Positions 1 through 49,267 of a DNA stretch of 64,000 nt are shown here, in pieces (the stretch's first letter is position 1; each line of letters starts with the position of its first letter). Source of the stretch: the human T2T-CHM13v2.0 reference genome, Homo sapiens; the NCBI RefSeq assembly GCF_009914755.1, contig NC_060930.1; one strand, 5' to 3'. The notes beneath the pieces were generated by a model, which had not been told where the DNA came from, searched no databases, and saw only the letters and a list, made by a program, of their open reading frames with translations. The position numbers and the translations under genes are program-made.

Positions 1-1304
1 AATTTACCTATAAACACTGTTTTAGCTGTGTCCCAGAGATTCTGGGACATTGTCTCTTTGTTCTCATTGGTTTCAAATAACTTGTTTATTTCTACCTTAA
101 TTTCATTAGTTACCCAGTAGCCATTCAGGAGCAGGTTGTTCAATTTCCAAGTAGTTGTGTGGTTGTGAGTGAGTTTCTTAATCCTGAGTTCTAATTTGTT
201 TGCACTGTGGTCTGAGAGACTGTTATGATTTCTGTTCTTTTGCATTTGCTGAGGATTGTTTTACTATTAATTACGTGGTCAATTTTAGAAGAAGTTCTAT
301 GTGGTGCTGAGAAGAATATATATTCTGTTGATTTGGGGTGGAGACTTCTACAGATGTCTATTAGGTCCGCTTGGTCCAGAGCTGATTTCAAGTCCTGAAT
401 ATCTTTGTTAATTTTCTGTCTTGTTGATCTGTCTAATATTGACAGTGGGGTGTTAAAGTATCCCACTATTTTGTGTGGGAGTCTAAGTCTCTTTGTAGGT
501 CTCTAAGAACTTGCTTTATGAATCTGAGTGCTCCTGTATTGGATGCATGTATATTTAGGATAGTTACCTCCTCTTGCTGCATTGATCCCTTTACAAATAC
601 GTAATGACCCTCTTTGTCTTTTTGACTTTTGTTGGTTTAAAGTGTGTTTTATCAGAGACTAGGATTGCAACCCTTCCTTTTTTTGCCTTCCTTTGCTTGG
701 TAAATCTTCCCCTATCCCTTTATTTTGAGCCCATGTGTGTCTTTTTACATGGGATGGGTTTCCTGGATACAGCACACTAATGGGTCTTGAATCTTTATCC
801 AGTTTGCCAGTCTGTGTCTTTTAATTGGGACATTTAGCCCATTTATATTTAAGGTTAATATTGTTATGTGTTAATTTGATCCTGTCATTATTATGCTAGC
901 TGGTTATTTTGCCCATTAGTTGATACAGTTTCTTCATAGTGTCAATGATCTTTACATTTTGGTATGTTTTTGCAGTGGCTGGTACTAGCTTTTCCTTTCT
1001 GTAATTAGTGCTTCCTTCAGGAGCTCTTGTAAGGCAGGTCTGGTGGTGAGAAAATCCCTCACATTTGCTTGTCTGTAAAGGATTTTATTTCTCTGCTTAT
1101 GAAGCTTAGCTTGGCTGGATATGAAATTCTGGGTTGAAAATTCTTTTAAGATGTTGAATATTGGCTCCCACTCTCTTCTGGCTTGTAGGATTTCTGCAGA
1201 GACAGATCCACTGTTAGCCTGATGGGCTTCCCTTTGTGGGTAACCTGACCTTTCTCTCTGGCTGCCTTAAATTTTTTCCTTCATTTCATCCTTGGTGAAT
1301 CTGA
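1..1304 (-). mobile_element. L1PA (about L1PA7/8 age) fragment: ORF1 3' part and ORF2 endonuclease region, continuing past the window start
   Basis: The minus-strand ORF 191-466 is L1 ORF2 endonuclease (FNTPLSILDRSTRQKINKDIQDL), and ORF1 sequence runs to 1304. Confidence 0.92.
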
Positions 1305-1391
1305 AAGTCATGGTTTTTGATAGGGATTGCATTGAATCTATAGATCACTTTGGGTAGCATGAACATTTTAACAATATTCTTTCAATCCATG

Positions 1392-2542
<1,151 letters not shown>

Positions 2543-5143
2543 CATGAACACAGGATATCTTTCCATTGATTTGTGTTTTCTTCCATTTTTTCCTCATTGT
2601 TTTATGGTTTTCAGTGTACAGGCTTCTAAGTCCTTCTTTAAATTTATCTCTAAATATTCTTTATGCTATTATAAATGGGATTTTTTATTTCGTTTACATA
2701 TAGTTTGTTAATGCATAGAAATGCCACTGATTTTTATGTGTTCATTTTTATCTTGCAAAATTACTGAATTTGTTCATCAGGGTTCTAGTAGTTTTTTCTA
2801 CTTATAAGATCACATCATTTGCAAACAAAGACAATTTTACTTCTGACTTTCCAATTTGGATGCCTTTTATTTCTTTTTCTTGCCTAATTGCTCTAGCCAG
2901 GACTTCCAGTACTATGTTGAATAGAAGTGGGGAGAGTAAGCATCCTTATTTCTAATCTTAGAAAAAAATTTTCAGTTTTTCACCATTGAGTATGGTGTTA
3001 CCTGTGAGCTTGTCTTATGTGCTCTTTATTATGTTGAGATACACTCCTACTATATCCAATTTGTTGAGAGGTTTTATCATGAAAGAATCTTGAATTTTGT
3101 CAAATGCTTTTTTTGCAACTATTACAATAAGCATATGATTTTATCTTTTCTTCTGCTAATGTGGTGTATCATATTTATGGATTTCATATGACATGTTTTT
3201 TGAAAATAATCAATGTTATAAGATGTCACATATTTTCACCACTTTGCAAAGCAAACATCATATTTTATCTTGATAACTATTAGCCAAATTTCATCACAAT
3301 TAATTCTTTCCTAAGCATATTTATGACAAGTTAATTAAGAAAAATGGGAAATGCTGACTATCCCACCTAAAATAAAAAGAAAAAAATCGTTTGTTTTCTT
3401 CAGTCAAGAAAATATAAGCTTCTCTAAGTGACAGAAAAAAATTAAGTGTTATCCAGTGTTCAGCAACAATATTCTTTATACATAGGAAAAGTTATCCTTG
3501 AGTAAGAAATACATTCATCGATAGCAGAACTGAACATGCGTCACGAAAGTTTGCATGCCTAGAGCCTATAATATCTGAGCCAACTAGACCCCTGGCCACA
3601 ATGGTGCTCACATCTTCCTAAACAAGGTGGAAATCACCTCCTATATGGCATGCTTCTAGATATGTGGCAGGAAACACTTTAAAGTGGTTACAAGAATTTG
3701 CACTAGATGATTCTTTATTTAGAATGTCATTAGGAGAAACAGTTTTGACCTTCAAATAGTAACAGACCTTCAAATTTTCCTTTGGAATTGAAGTATGCAG
3801 CAGCTTTATACTTTGAACATTAAGGATTTTTAATATCCAAAACCTAACCAATTTGTAGCTGGAGCTCAAGTCAGCCTCACCATACAAAATAGATATTTCC
3901 AGAAAAGACTCCAAAAAATAATTGCTTTATTACACTAAAATTCAGTTAGGTACTTTTTATAACCACAAATATTAATGTAACCTCAACTCTTCTAAGGCTC
4001 TTACTGCAAGTGTATACTAATCGCATTTCACTGTCCCTTGTATCTAGCATAACGTCTTTTAGGGAGAAAGATTACTGTTTCCAACTCCACCGAAGCAGTT
4101 CTTGGAGAATATATTAGCAAAATATATTATGTGATAAAAGATTTGTATTCAAAATATGCAATGAACTCATAAAACTCAACAAAAAGATAATAAACAACCC
4201 AATTCATAAGGACAGAAGATCTGAAAACCTCCCCAAAGAAAACCCAAACTCTTTATGGATTGTACATAAGCATATGAAAGATGCTCAACATTACATGTTA
4301 TTAAGGAATTGCAAATTAAAATAACAACGGGCTATCACTATATCACTATTAGAATGGCTAAAATACAAAAACAATACTAGCAATACCAAATGCTGGTGAG
4401 GGTGCAGAACAGTAGAAACTCTCATTCATTTATTGCTGGTGGACATGCAAAATGGTGCAGCCACTTTGGAAGACAGTTCAAAAGTTTCTTACAAAGCTAA
4501 GCATGCTCTTACCGTAAGATTTGGCAATAGTTCCTCTAGGTATTTACTTGATTGAGCTGAAAACTTATGTCCACACAAAACTAAATGTAGTCTCACCATA
4601 GGATCTAGCCATTATGCTCATTGGTATTTACCCAAATAAGTTGAAGAAGTTATGTCCACACACACAAAAAAAACTGCATATGAATGTTTTAGCAGCTCTA
4701 TTCATAATTGCCAAAATTTGGAAGCAACACAGATGTCCTCCAATAGGCCAATAGATAAACTGTGGTATGTTCTTACAGTGGAATACTACTCAATGATAAA
4801 AAGAAATGAGCTATCAAGCCATACAAAGGCATAGAGGAACCTTAAATGCAAATTGCTAAGTAAAAGAGGTCAGTCTGAAAAGGCTACATACTGTCTGATT
4901 TCAACTATATAGCATTCTAGAAAAGGCAAAACTATAGAGACAATAAAAAAGGTCAGCTGTTGCCAAGAGTTTGGAAGGAGTGGAGATGAATAGTGAGCAC
5001 AGGGGATATGTAGGGCAGTGAAAGCATTCTGTATGATACTTTAATGATGGGTTCATGAGATTACATGTTTGAGAAAATTCATAAAACAATGCAAAACAAA
5101 GATTATAATTTCATGTAAACTATGGACTTTAGGTAATAGTAAT

Positions 5144-6284
5144 TGATATGGTTTGGCTCTGTGTCCCTAACCAAATCTCACGTCAAATTGTAATCCCTAG
5201 TGTCAGAGGAGGGGTCTGGTGGGAGGTCACTGAATTATGGGGACAGACTTCCCCATTTTTGTTCTTGTGATAGACTTCTCATAAGATGTGGTTGTTTGAA
5301 CAATGAGATACCATCTCACACCAGTTAGAATGGCAATCATTAAAAAGTCAGGAAACAATAGGTGCTGGAGAGGATGTGGAGAAATAGGAACACTTTTACA
5401 CTGTTGGTGGGACTGTAAACTAGTTCAACCATTGTGGAAGTCAGTGTGGCGATTCCTCAGGGATCTAGAACTAGAAATACCATTTGATCCAGCCATCCCA
5501 TTACTGGGTATATACCCAAAGGACTATAAATCATGCTGCTATAAAGACACATGCACACGTATGTTTATTGCGGCACTATTTACAATAGCAAAGACTTGGA
5601 ACCAAGCCAAATGTCCAACAATGATAGACTGGATTAAGAAAATGTGGCACATATACACCATGGAATACTATGCAGCCATAAAAAATGATGAGTTCATGTC
5701 CTTTGTAGAGACATGGATGAAATTGGAAATCATCATTCTCAGTAAACTATCGCAAGGACAAAAAACCAAACACCACATGTTCTCACTCATAGATGGGAAT
5801 TGAACAATGAGAACACATGGACACAGGAAGGGGAACATCACACTCTGGGGCCTGTTGTGGGGTGGGGGGAGGGGGGAGGGATAGCATTAGGAGATATACC
5901 TAATGCTAAATGATGAGTTAATGGGTGCAGCACACCAGCATGGCACATGTATACATATGTAACTAACCTGCACATTGTGCACATGTACCCTAAAACTTAA
6001 AGTATAATAATAATAAAAAATAAAATAAAATAAAATAAAATAAAAAGATGTGGTTGTTTGAAAGTGTGTAGCATCTCACCCTTTGCTCTCTCTCTCTCCT
6101 GCCAGCCATGTGAAGACGTGTTTGCTTCCCCTTCACCTTCCTCCGTGATTGTAAGTTTCCTGAGGCATCCCCAGCCATGCCTCCTAAACAGCCTGCAGAC
6201 CTGTGAGTCAATTAAATCTCTTTTCTTTTTAAATTACCCAGATTCAGGTAGTTCTTCACATCAGTATGAGAATGGACTAATACA
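5144..6284 (+). mobile_element. MSTA-like (ERVL-MaLR) solo LTR, split by an L1PA
   Basis: TGATATGGTTTGGCT...ggactaataca with a 5-bp TSD gtaat (5139-5143 / 6285-6289). Confidence 0.85.
5301..6044 (+). mobile_element. Young 5'-truncated L1 (L1PA2/3-like)
   Basis: Open ORF2 C-terminus (5303-5803), 3'UTR, (TAAAA)n tail and a perfect 18-bp TSD aagatgtggttgtttgaa (5283-5300 / 6045-6062). Confidence 0.95.
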
Positions 6285-44041: not shown

Positions 44042-44890
44042 TAACAGAGGCAGGAAACAGAGACATTCTAGGCAGAAAAGGTTGGGGTCCCTGGCAAGGG
44101 GCCCACCGTCAAGCCTGGAACCACAGCCTGAAGTGAGAACTTTACATCTCCACTTTTCCTGCCAGAATGTTGCCTTTTCCAAAACCACCTCTAGCCTGAC
44201 CCACCCCCATCCTGTACTCATAGAAACAGCAGGCTCCACTGATAGACAGCAGAGAAGGGGAGAAGAGAATAACAGCTGAATGTCAGAGAGAAGCAGTTTG
44301 GCTTCAGAGGGATGGCTTGACGGCAGGAATTTGGAGAAAAGTCCAGCGGGAGACAGCCAGACTTCAGGGGAAGAATACCTTCCCGCTCTATCCCCTTTCC
44401 AGCTCCCCTTCCTGCTGAAAGTTACTTCTGTTGGCAATAAAATCCCCTGCATTCACTATCCTTCAATTAGTTCGTGTGACCTGATTTTCCTGAACACTGA
44501 ACAAGAGCTTGGGTGCCACAGGTGCAGATGCTAAAGAATGTCACACAGACCCTCTGCCCTCACTGGTAGAGAGCAACCACCTCATATAAAAAGTCAGAGG
44601 GCTCACTGAGCTGTTTAACATTAACGCCATCCACAGATGGCAAAGCTAAAAGAGCACTGTAACATATGCCCTCTGGGGCTTCAGGAGTCGTGGGTACTCC
44701 CCCCTAGACGCTGCCATGGGGCCTGCACAGAGTTTTGCTTCTGCCAGCATCCAGAAGCATTCATCCTAGCTTCTGTACCTGCTCACCTGTGTGCTCCCCC
44801 TCCCACGAGGGATTGAGAGCTGTGGGCTGAGTGAGCGAAGCACCCCTGTCATAAGGCCTGTGAAGGGATCAGGGAAAATTTCCTGTTTCA
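44042..44890 (+). mobile_element. ERV1 solo LTR (LTR1/LTR27/LTR28 group)
   Basis: GC-richer 850-bp block with internal AATAAA (44436-44441), ending cctgtttca, and a 4-bp TSD gaaa (44038-44041 / 44891-44894). Confidence 0.75.
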
Positions 44891-45379
44891 GAAAGACCAG
44901 AAAGGGCTACCATCACTCACTCTAACAGGAAGTAAAGGCTAACACAGACTCATAAACTACTTGAGAGTTGAAGGTCTGCCCCCAACACACATACACACAC
45001 ACACACACCAGCTTCATCAAAAGTAGGAATACTTACTGGTTCAAGGCATTTAAGGAAATATTTCACCAATCAGTTGCTGAGCACTAAGCTGTGGTGATAA
45101 GCTGTGGTGACCCAGATTCAACCCCTAGGAAGCAAGGCTTAAAAATAAAATAAGAATTTTAAAAAATAAGTTAATAGAAAAACAAAACAAAAGAAAATAA
45201 GCAGAGATTTTAGTGGCTATATACTGCAAGAAATACAAATGCTAAAAAATTTGTCCAGAAAAGTCACTAAACAAACAGACAACAACAAAACAGCAACAAG
45301 GGCAAACCCAGAAAGCAGGGGTGTTAGATATCTTATTCCAGAGTCGCCACATTATAGCATCTAAAATCTCCAGTTTTCA

Positions 45380-47400
45380 CATCTAGTCTTTCTAGACGTT
45401 TAGAAGCATACAAAGTAGGTTAAAAGTACAGGTAGTAAATAACACATTTTGTAGATTTCCTTTGGTTAAGATTCATAGAAAAAATGTTTTCTGGAAATTG
45501 ATCACACCACTTCTCTGAGCAGTGCACGGTATTCTAATTGTGGTGGGTCATGGAGGAAGAAGAAAGTACAAACGGCTTTATACCAACGGTGAGGCACAAT
45601 TGACCATTGTCCCTTACATCTGTACATTTACTTTGCTAGTATATAGTGTATATAAAAGACAAACAAGTCCTAATTTGCAACATCTAGTCTTTCTACATGT
45701 TAAAGAGGTTGCCAGTGTATGACAAAAGTAGAGTTAGTAAACTAATATATTGAGTACACTTTGTGTTAAAATTCATAGGAAAGACTGTTCTTAAAAACAC
45801 CATCTTTCTTGTGGAAATGAAATTGTTAAAATCTCTAAGCATTACAGATGCTTACACCTGTTCACTGAGTTGATAGAGGTAGGAAGGGGAAGGGTTCTAG
45901 GTCAGACTGTTTCTTGTTTAGAAGACACTTTCAAATTATAGCTTTTGTCATATATGTGTAACATTTATTCAATGCTACTGTGTATATAGTGGAAAACTTG
46001 TGTCCTATTTGAAACATCTATTCTTTCTAGATGTTTAAAAGCATACAACATATGTTAAAAGTAAATGGCTAAAGCATTTTTTGTTATTTCATACAATCAG
46101 TTAGATTTGGGAATAACATTGTTAAACTTGATGTCTTAGAGAGTATGCTGACTGTTTACTAAGCAGTGGCAGGTAGGGGAAAGAGAAGGGTTCTGTGCCT
46201 ATGAGTTAGATTTGTTCAGATGGTCTAACCACTGTTCTGTGTGTGCATTTTAATTAATATTGTGTTTTAAAGGGTAAACAAGTCCTAAAGCTCAAAGTAT
46301 ATTAAAAGTAGAGATAGTAAAATAATTCCTTTATAAATATTCTTTTGTTAGTTTTTAGGAAGGGCTGTACTGTGGGAGTAGACCTTTGTTAATCCACCTC
46401 TTGTAGCTAGATGTAACTCTGTATTTAGTCACTGGAATGTTGGAAGAGGAAGAAGAAGAAGGGTAAAGGGAGGGCTGTTTGCTTGTATCTCCATATCTAG
46501 AAGATGGTTTTAGATTACAACTGTAGGTCTATATGTGCATTTCTACTAAAATTCCTGTGTTTATTATGGACAAAGTTCATTATTTTGCAACATTTAACCT
46601 TTATAGATGTCCTGAGGTGACAATGTATGATAAAAAAATAGAGCTAGTGAATTGACCAATTTATAACTATTTTTTGCTATACTTTATAGAAAAGATGAAT
46701 CTTGGACATGGAATTGTTAAACCACCTCTAACCAGTGTATGTCAGAACTTGTTAATTAGGTTAGCAGCAGAGGGGCAGGAGGAAGTATAAAGGCAGAGAC
46801 ATATGTAGATGTGTTTATATTTACATTTTGACAATAGCCATCCATGCATGCACATCTCTTTTGGCTGTACTGCAGGAATACATTAAGTAATTCAATGGAA
46901 ACATACCTTCTTGTTAATATTTTAATGTTATAGATCTGATCGTGAATTCTCTTAGAAACAATATACTTAGTGTACTCTGTTGCTTTCTGTTTAATTTTAA
47001 ATTGAGCATTAAGGGAAGGCTGGTTTGAGGTAACTCTGCCAATACTTTTATCTAGAGACCCGTTGTGATTTTTGTCTTCTGTGAAATTTTTGTCCCAGGA
47101 AAGGTGAGATTACATTTTTTTCTAACAAATTGAGTTGGTATAGTATATTTTTGATTATCAAAACACAGTAAACATTCACAATGTTTGAAAAAGTATGATA
47201 CATACTGTACAATCTCAATCTCATAAAATTTGGATGTTGTATCTATAAACACACACGACCTAGATGGATACATCAAACTGTAAACCGCTTGTGACTGTGA
47301 ATAATTTTGTTCTTTGATTCTGATGTCTTTCAGTTTCTTATACTGCACATATTAACTTTTAAAAAGTTAAGGATTTTTTAAATAAATAAATACATACAAG
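45380..47400 (+). pseudogene. Processed, 5'-truncated retrocopy of the lncRNA NORAD (LINC00657)
   Basis: ~300-nt repeat units start catctagtctttcta(g) at 45380, 45681, 46015 and 46591, with long stretches I recognise from NORAD (e.g. tttattcaatgctactgtgtatata, gagtacactttgtgttaaaattcatagg). PUMILIO elements TGTATATA at 45647 and 45981. AATAAA and an A-rich end at ~47380. Degenerate TSD aaaatctccagttttca (45363-45379) / aaaattccaattttca (47401-47416) inside an L1M. Confidence 0.88.
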
Positions 47401-47846
47401 AAAATTCCAATTTTCAGGGAAGAAAAAGAAAGATACATACAAAGAAACAGGGAAGTATAGTCCATACATGAAGGGAGATGGTAACAGAAATTAGCTTTGA
47501 GGGGTCCCAGATGTTGACTAACTAGACAAAAACTTTAAAGCAGTTATTATAAATATGTTTAAAGCATTAAAGAAAAAAACATGTTTTAGGAATTAGAGGA
47601 AAGTATCACAACTATGTCTTATCAAATAGATAATATCAATAAAGAGGTAGAAATTATAAAAATGTTAAACTCAAATGAAAATTTTGGAGTGAATAAATAA
47701 ATAACTGAAATGAAAATAGAAATCATTGCAGGGTGTCAACAACAGACTTGAGCTATTAGAGCAAATAATTTGTAAACTTGAAGATAGGTTAATAAAGATT
47801 ACCTAGACTAAGAAACAGAAGAAAAATGAATGAATAAAAGCAAACA

Positions 47847-48302
<456 letters not shown>

Positions 48303-49267
48303 TCATACATGCAAGAAGCCCAAGAAAATTTCAGTAGAATAAGTTCAAAGAGATTCTCACCTAGATAAATTATGGTTGAACTTTCAAAAGTCAAAAACAA
48401 AGAGAAAAACTTTCTCAGAATTCATTCAAACAATTTCTCCTCATTGGCCAGAACTAGACACATTCTAATAAGAGTAGCACCAAAATTGGCTTGGGCCACT
48501 TTTAGTTTACCTCTTGGGTTTGCCAATAAGCTTGACCTCCTCAGAAACTTATGCAAGAAGGAATGATACCTGAATAAGCCCAAGATTCTGCTAGGAAGGA
48601 ACAAAGTTGGGTGGCTCTGAGGTAGGTAGCCAATAGTGTCTGCCATTGAGAAGTTTATTGAATTTGATTTGGATTCTCATTAGATGGTTTTTATCTTCAA
48701 AGTCTTTATCTTTTCTCTTACTCTTTTCCCACATTCTGCTGTATCTCCTCATCCACCCACCACTACAGCCAAATAAACTATTTTTAGTTACAAATATCAG
48801 GCTGATGTCTCTTTGTGCAAAGGCCTGCTGCAGCTCTGAATTAATTTGTGTCACAACCATCACAAAACTGTGGACTTCAAAACTCTATTGGCTGCTTCTT
48901 AATGCTTTCCACCTACTTATTCTCTTTCTCAGTAACACAAGGTTTCAGACTGTATTTTAAGCCAAACTAAACTTACTGACCACTCTCTTTACACACAAAT
49001 TTCTGGCTACCATTTCTGAGATTTTATATAGCCAAGTCATTCTCCTCATGGCACCTTTCAAATCACAGATGCCTAATAAATGCATATGTGCAGAAAGAAT
49101 GGAAACTGAGGGAACTGGACTTACCAACTGCTCAAATTCAGTACTTCATGCATTTGAGTATGACAGGTCCTGGAGATAAAATAGTGAGAAAGCAGACCTG
49201 GCTCTTAGATTCCTGTGTCCTTCAGGCAGAGAGAGGAGGGGAGGGAGAGGCGTCAAAGCTGAATAAC

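What the first reader, a model, noticed from the sequence alone, without database searches (positions are those of the whole stretch)
45380..47400. Retrocopy of the lncRNA NORAD with its ~300-nt repeat architecture and PUMILIO sites
Seen in sequence: repeated units (catctagtctttctag...aaaagtagag.tagtaaa) at ~300-nt spacing, TGTATATA at 45647 and 45981, a 3' AATAAA/A-rich end and a degenerate 16-17-bp TSD interrupting an L1M. Established: NORAD consists of repeated domains that sequester PUM1/2 through UGUANAUA elements, and it has many processed copies in the human genome. It is invisible to ORF tracks and is a non-coding-RNA fossil made by L1 machinery.
Basis: partly seen in the sequence, partly recalled or inferred. 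Interest (0 to 1): 0.7.

Follow-up and report, generated by a model that had tools for sequence, protein, structure and literature searches.

The report
Ancient truncated NORAD retrocopy, likely dead
This stretch is a 2-kb, front-shortened copy of the well-known human RNA gene NORAD sitting inside an old LINE-1 repeat; it is likely a dead relic of a known kind, but it predates an Alu insertion in NORAD and indicates that one published "extra" NORAD repeat unit is likely just the cut-off half of its neighbour.

Summary
Confirmed. Window 45380-47382 is colinear with NORAD nt 3008-5331 (83% over 1897 columns). The chr20 match is NORAD: it holds a published repeat-9 oligo, 15 UGUANAUA sites and a 5' CpG island. 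The copy has a decayed A tail and a 16-17-bp target-site duplication that occurs once in 6 of 6 uninterrupted paralogues of the host L1. Corrections: the AATAAA at 47381 is tail decay, and NORAD's own signal is mutated. The two PUMILIO sites are what neutral decay predicts (2 of 4 kept, 1.8 expected). The promoter, 5' export region and unit 7 are missing. At least 49 other NORAD-like loci exist, and such pseudogenes are in print. The copy lacks NORAD's Alu and falls in the oldest group of copies (branch 0.113; roughly 65-100 My, inferred). By-product: the published unit NRU#10a starts at the Alu's second target-site duplication, and unit 10 is continuous in this and five other Alu-free copies, so 10a is likely the displaced half of unit 10. 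Expression was not testable.

The parts
45363..45379 (+). 5' target-site duplication (17 nt), beginning at a CT/AAAA site (TT/AAAA in 3 of 6 paralogues)
   Evidence: sequence; single in 6 of 6 paralogous host-repeat copies
45380..47382 (+). 5'-truncated NORAD retrocopy: NORAD nt 3008-5331 without the Alu
   Evidence: 83.3% over 1897 columns, K2P 0.19; alignment; span
45380..45494 (+). Repeat unit 8, 3' part only; the truncation removed its PUMILIO site (NORAD nt 2972)
   Evidence: profile hit 72.5 bits; site positions
45619..45792 (+). Repeat unit 9: first PUMILIO site lost, second kept at 45647; long hairpin still has the 9 nt later deleted from NORAD
45947..46064 (+). Repeat unit 10, continuous; PUMILIO site at 45981; empty site of NORAD's Alu at about 46037-46049
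46291..46366 (+). Degenerate unit matching published NRU#10b
   Evidence: profile hit 23 bits; NORAD 4176-4294 in the PMC8192489 supplement; the 10b label is inferred from hit order
46526..46712 (+). Repeat unit 11; its 3' PUMILIO site is lost
47365..47370 (+). Mutated remnant of NORAD's AATAAA poly(A) signal (AGTTAA)
47383..47400 (+).
   Evidence: no counterpart in NORAD's genomic 3' flank; A-rich tails at the same place in other copies
47401..47416 (+). 3' target-site duplication (16 nt)
45150..45362 (+). Host L1, part upstream of the insertion (left boundary approximate)
   Evidence: 41 other matches at 69-87%; contiguous with the right flank in paralogues
47417..48410 (+). Host L1, downstream part with ORF1 remnant, interrupted by a later Alu at about 47847-48146
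   Evidence: 39 other matches at 68-75%; Pfam PF02994 E 3.3e-9; Alu and its TSD

Best explanation
The stretch is a 5'-truncated copy of NORAD's 3' part with a decayed A tail and a target-site duplication inside an old L1; it was likely made by L1 reverse transcription of NORAD RNA in an early-primate or older germ line and has likely decayed without function since. Shown: colinearity with NORAD nt 3008-5331, the end at NORAD's poly(A) site, TSD, tail, interrupted host L1, absence of NORAD's Alu, and a long private branch (0.113 substitutions per site). Inferred from established L1 biology: ORF2p nicked an AT-rich target, primed on the poly(A) tail and stopped in unit 8 at a 1-nt microhomology. 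Inferred: age about 65-100 My, older than the New World monkey split. Inferred: no PUMILIO decoy role, because the copy has no NORAD promoter, no 5' export region, no unit 7, two sites, a mutated poly(A) signal and a pair-breaking change in each of three long hairpins.
For: Parent identity: the repeat-9 oligo of PMC4947167 is present letter for letter in L031 (compared by eye); 15 UGUANAUA sense versus 1 antisense and a 5' CpG island; the published first and last primers delimit 5339 nt. Alignment. TSD. L1 ORF1. Tree of 24 sequences: ladder from NORAD with the window copy in the deepest star-like group and no long branch shared with another copy. Neutral decay: 2 of 4 sites kept versus 1.8 expected (P>=2 is 0.61); all copies 33 of 66 versus 36.1+/-3.8. 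Of 317 mismatches to NORAD, 182 are private to this copy, 97 are shared with other old copies and 38 are ambiguous. PMC7617650 (passages): units 7+8 with three sites suffice for de-repression, single units with one or two sites do not, and loss of the 5' domain makes NORAD more nuclear.
Against: No expression or CLIP data could be examined. Four sites give little power to detect selection. An ~840-bp LTR-like repeat lies 490 nt upstream (about 44050-44890) and could supply a promoter, and HCG11 shows a NORAD copy can be expressed. NORAD is unspliced, so intron loss cannot be used as a test. The copy's exact place among old copies has weak support (49-73). The age rests on recalled divergence times and rates.
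Confidence: 0.92

Rival explanations
1. Same origin, but the copy is transcribed from the upstream LTR-like repeat or the host L1 and acts as a weak PUMILIO-binding RNA, like a small HCG11.
For: LTR-like element 490 nt upstream, with 39 relatives at 73-79% (the LTR label is recalled from its look); two intact sites; AATAAA at 47381 and further signals downstream; HCG11 precedent.
Against: No RefSeq transcript in the hub table; site survival is neutral; CpG o/e 0.16 in the kilobase upstream; the LTR-like element has its own AATAAA at 44438; one or two sites were insufficient in reporter tests.
Confidence: 0.05
2. The donor was an earlier transcribed NORAD copy rather than NORAD itself.
For: The best BLAST hits are other copies (79-80%) rather than NORAD (77-78%); the copy is sister to C8:26.82 with support 73.
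Against: The shared branch is only 0.004 against private branches of 0.113. NORAD's lower BLAST rank follows from its Alu and later changes.
Confidence: 0.02
3. DNA-level duplication of part of NORAD or of another copy with its flanks.
For: NORAD has no introns, so a DNA copy would look similar inside.
Against: The copy ends at the poly(A) site with a tail and TSD. The flanks match only old repeats at 68-87%, with no near-identical paralogue among 40 candidates scored per search. No similarity to NORAD's genomic flanks other than Alus.
Confidence: 0.01

Closest known systems
NORAD (LINC00657), chr20
   Same: Sequence of units 8 (part) to 12 and the 3' region, ~300-nt spacing, two PUMILIO sites in register, same 3' end.
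   Different: Lacks nt 1-3007 (promoter, 5' module, units 1-7, 11 of the 15 sites) and the Alu; two further sites lost; poly(A) signal mutated; keeps older states of units 9 and 10.
HCG11 and the near-full-length NORAD pseudogenes (PMC4947167, PMC7976429; passages read)
   Same: Copies of the same RNA. Four loci with at least 90% identity, three of them over 4 kb, appear; C6:26.39 fits HCG11 by place and 90% identity (label inferred).
   Different: Those are young (branches 0.017-0.038 for the three in the tree), near full length and carry the Alu. This one is 2 kb, about three times older than HCG11's branch, Alu-free and has no annotated transcript.
L1-mediated processed pseudogenes (target-primed reverse transcription; established knowledge)
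   Same: 5' truncation, poly(A) tail, 16-17-bp TSD, AT-rich target.
   Different: The parent is an unspliced non-coding RNA, so there is no intron loss or broken frame to see.

Membership tests
NORAD-derived sequence | Colinear alignment to NORAD | tested here: met
NORAD-derived sequence | The chr20 match is NORAD itself | tested here: met
   published oligo, primers and unit coordinates all fit L031
L1-mediated processed pseudogene | Ends at the parent's poly(A) site with an A-rich tail | tested here: met
   ends at nt 5331 of 5339; tail 47383-47400
L1-mediated processed pseudogene | Target-site duplication | tested here: met
   single in 6 of 6 paralogues
L1-mediated processed pseudogene | L1 endonuclease-type target (TT/AAAA) | tested here: met
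   CT/AAAA in the window, TT/AAAA in 3 of 6 paralogues; consensus recalled
L1-mediated processed pseudogene | Loss of introns | not testable with these tools
   NORAD is unspliced (PMC4947167)
L1-mediated processed pseudogene | Neutral decay | tested here: inconclusive
   consistent with neutrality (2 of 4 vs 1.8) but low power; no orthologues available
Functional PUMILIO-decoy lncRNA (NORAD, HCG11) | Many PUMILIO sites, including the unit 7+8 module | tested here: not met
   two UGUANAUA sites; unit 7 and the unit-8 site absent
Functional PUMILIO-decoy lncRNA (NORAD, HCG11) | CpG-island promoter and 5' export module | tested here: not met
   copy starts at nt 3008; upstream CpG o/e 0.16
Functional PUMILIO-decoy lncRNA (NORAD, HCG11) | Abundant cytoplasmic transcript bound by PUM1/2 | not testable with these tools
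   no RNA-seq or CLIP data available
Host element L1M | L1 ORF1 homology | tested here: met
   PF02994 E 3.3e-9
Host element L1M | Subfamily assignment | not testable with these tools
   no repeat library; about 70% identity to relatives fits an old family

The most novel reading that the evidence does not exclude
The 50 or so NORAD copies form a dated fossil series of the lncRNA inside one genome, and Alu-free copies such as this one revise NORAD's map. Published NRU#10a is not an independent, recently gained repeat but the 3' half of unit 10 pushed away by a catarrhine Alu. Older NORAD also had an intact unit-9 long hairpin and one more PUMILIO site in unit 8, both lost before the Alu arrived. 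These give natural pre-Alu controls for the proposed Alu-dependent STAT3 site.
Probability: 0.85. Interest if true: 0.45.

Novelty: new member of a known kind. Interest (0 to 1): 0.3.

Why it matters
The locus itself is ordinary: one of at least 49 NORAD-like copies, unannotated in the hub's RefSeq table, relevant mostly as a read-mapping caveat. Its use is as a record of NORAD before the Alu. It shows unit 10 whole, which argues that a published extra unit (NRU#10a) is an insertion artefact, and it helps order changes in a well-studied lncRNA (loss of the unit-9 hairpin, loss of a unit-8 site, Alu gain) using one genome.

Tried and rejected
Rfam gathering scan of the whole window: 0 matches. 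Tandem Repeats Finder did not report the 300-nt array. The inverted repeat 45204-45221/45353-45370 suggested a 5' inversion; rejected because no window stretch there aligns to NORAD on either strand and it lies in the host L1. PUMILIO-site excess against the pairwise background (33 of 66 vs 24) looked like selection on copies; rejected because that background includes changes on NORAD's own branch, and against copy branches alone the expectation is 36 (whole-gap cells were left out of the 66). My repeat profile does not detect unit 12 even in NORAD. The sigma-70 scan is irrelevant for human DNA. Four of six Pfam queries in the flanks gave no L1 match. STAT3-site comparison across copies: the region diverges faster than the rest in nearly all copies, but my placement rests on a recalled coordinate and the folding energies are uninformative; no conclusion. 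Lee et al. 2016 was not held, so any list of copies there was not seen. PMC5577775 and bioRxiv 2023.08.07.552337 had nothing relevant in the passages searched.

Full report
Observation. The repeats, the two TGTATATA sites, the A-rich end and the TSD are all in the sequence. Five units with cores at about 45374, 45673, 46007, 46291 and 46584 resemble one another far beyond chance: 10 of 10 pairs beat the best of 200 base shuffles, while 0 of 11 pairs with the last 520 nt did. The PUMILIO motif is not enriched window-wide (13 vs 10.2 expected).

Parent. A search of the window's own genome gave 114 matches (40 of 78 candidates scored), including C20:37.767-37.771 Mb on the minus strand. That locus (L031) is NORAD. 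It contains the repeat-9 oligo printed in PMC4947167 (compared by eye), has 15 UGUANAUA sites on the sense strand and 1 on the other and a 5' CpG island, and the first and last primers of PMC8192489 delimit 5339 nt. The window copy aligns colinearly with nt 3008-5331 at 83.3% over 1897 columns. It starts inside unit 8, just after that unit's PUMILIO site, and skips NORAD's Alu (nt 3662-3950) cleanly, with one copy of the Alu's TSD. together show 50 distinct loci, counting NORAD and this one; this is a lower bound, since 40 candidates were scored per search.

Insertion anatomy. Both flanks are old dispersed repeats. I fetched 6 of their relatives, three chosen from each search. In all six the two flanks are contiguous and overlap by 15-16 nt, so 45363-45379 and 47401-47416 are a true TSD; two left-flank scores were marginal. 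The right flank encodes an L1 ORF1 remnant (PF02994, E 3.3e-9; 2 of 6 queries matched). NORAD's AATAAA aligns to AGTTAA at 47365; the AATAAA at 47381 is at the start of the decayed tail. These are the marks of L1 target-primed reverse transcription (established knowledge; the event is inferred).

Age. I aligned NORAD, the window copy and 22 of the other copies, with their Alus removed; L036 and L049 were fetched but left out because they do not cover the region or are fragmentary. The tree is a ladder from NORAD. The window copy sits in the deepest star-like group with a terminal branch of 0.113; its exact neighbours are weakly supported (49-73), while the nodes separating young from old copies have 90-100. 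Three copies share NORAD's Alu site (L032, L034, L035) and 11 others plus the window are continuous across it. The Alu falls between copies with branches of 0.049 and 0.038. PMC11723954 (passages) reports the Alu in human and rhesus but not night monkey. With recalled split times of 30-43 My and recalled older rates this gives about 65-100 My for the window copy. This is an inference.

Function. Two of four homologous PUMILIO sites survive, against 1.8 expected from the branch length; over all copies 33 of 66 survive against 36.1+/-3.8. Each of the three long hairpins has one pair-breaking change. The promoter, 5' module and unit 7 are absent. PMC7617650 (passages) found that units 7+8 with three sites suffice, that single units with one or two sites do not, and that the 5' part aids export. 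I conclude the copy is most likely dead (0.92). The main caveat is an ~840-bp LTR-like repeat ending 490 nt upstream (label recalled) and the lack of expression data.

What the copy shows about NORAD. PMC8192489 (section 3.5, passages and supplement files 2 and 6 read; figures not seen) reported two new units and suggested 10a was recently acquired. Its cmsearch output has two hits between units 10 and 11: 3947-4009 (model 108-171, E 0.0027) and 4176-4294. I take these as 10a and 10b by order. Position 3947 is the first base of the Alu's second TSD copy, and the unit-10 hit (3546-3689) runs into Alu sequence after 3661. A profile built from ten other NORAD units finds unit 10 split in NORAD (model 10-105, then 93-134 at 3947). 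It finds one continuous hit in the window copy (model 5-120) and in 5 of 5 Alu-free copies scanned. So 10a is likely the displaced half of unit 10. The word Alu occurs only in the reference list of that paper and of PMC7617650, and not in PMC5828396 or the 2023 preprint. Searches listed no paper on this point, but I read only PMC11723954 and that preprint from those lists, and subscription papers are missing. Likewise, 12 of 13 older copies with data keep 9 nt of the unit-9 hairpin that NORAD and four young copies lack. Seven of 12 older copies have a PUMILIO site in the 3' part of unit 8 that NORAD and those four lack; the window copy differs from it by one base.

Known context. Many NORAD pseudogenes are mentioned in PMC4947167 and PMC6407921 (passages), and HCG11 is the expressed one. 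Searches listed no catalogue naming this locus; Lee et al. 2016 and its supplements could not be seen and may list it. Rfam has no match.

Verdict. New member of a known kind; interest 0.3, most of it from the fossil-series by-product.

Noticed in passing
window about 44050-44890: An ~840-bp dispersed repeat with sharp shared ends, 39 relatives at 73-79% and an internal AATAAA at 44438; looks like a solo LTR (label recalled) and is not in the hub's list of longest masked stretches.
   Followed up: partly
L031, NORAD nt 3662-4009: Published NRU#10a starts at the Alu's second TSD, and the published NRU#10 probing fragment ends in Alu sequence (reverse primer).
   Followed up: yes
L047 (C4:109.75 Mb): NORAD copy with pieces on both strands, resembling a twin-priming inversion.
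   Followed up: no
L033 (C9:116.17 Mb), about 4530-4670: Near-full-length Alu-free copy (88%) with a ~65-nt internal duplication; the youngest copy lacking the Alu and so the best pre-Alu reference.
   Followed up: partly
L008 (C14:46.34 Mb), about 1320: Young copy whose 5' end falls right at the Alu's second TSD, directly joined to other sequence.
   Followed up: no
L036 (C5:25.29 Mb): 97%-identical copy covering only NORAD's 5' half (query 51-2643), which suggests internal priming or a later deletion.
   Followed up: no
C6:26.39, 28.48 and 29.04 Mb: Three NORAD copies of different ages within 2.7 Mb of chromosome 6p.
   Followed up: no
window 46118-46229: Region roughly matching the reported STAT3-binding site; 74% identical to NORAD versus 83% overall, with a G-rich expansion seen only in NORAD and its youngest copies.
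   Followed up: partly
window 45085-45110: Perfect 13-nt tandem duplication upstream of the insertion.
   Followed up: no
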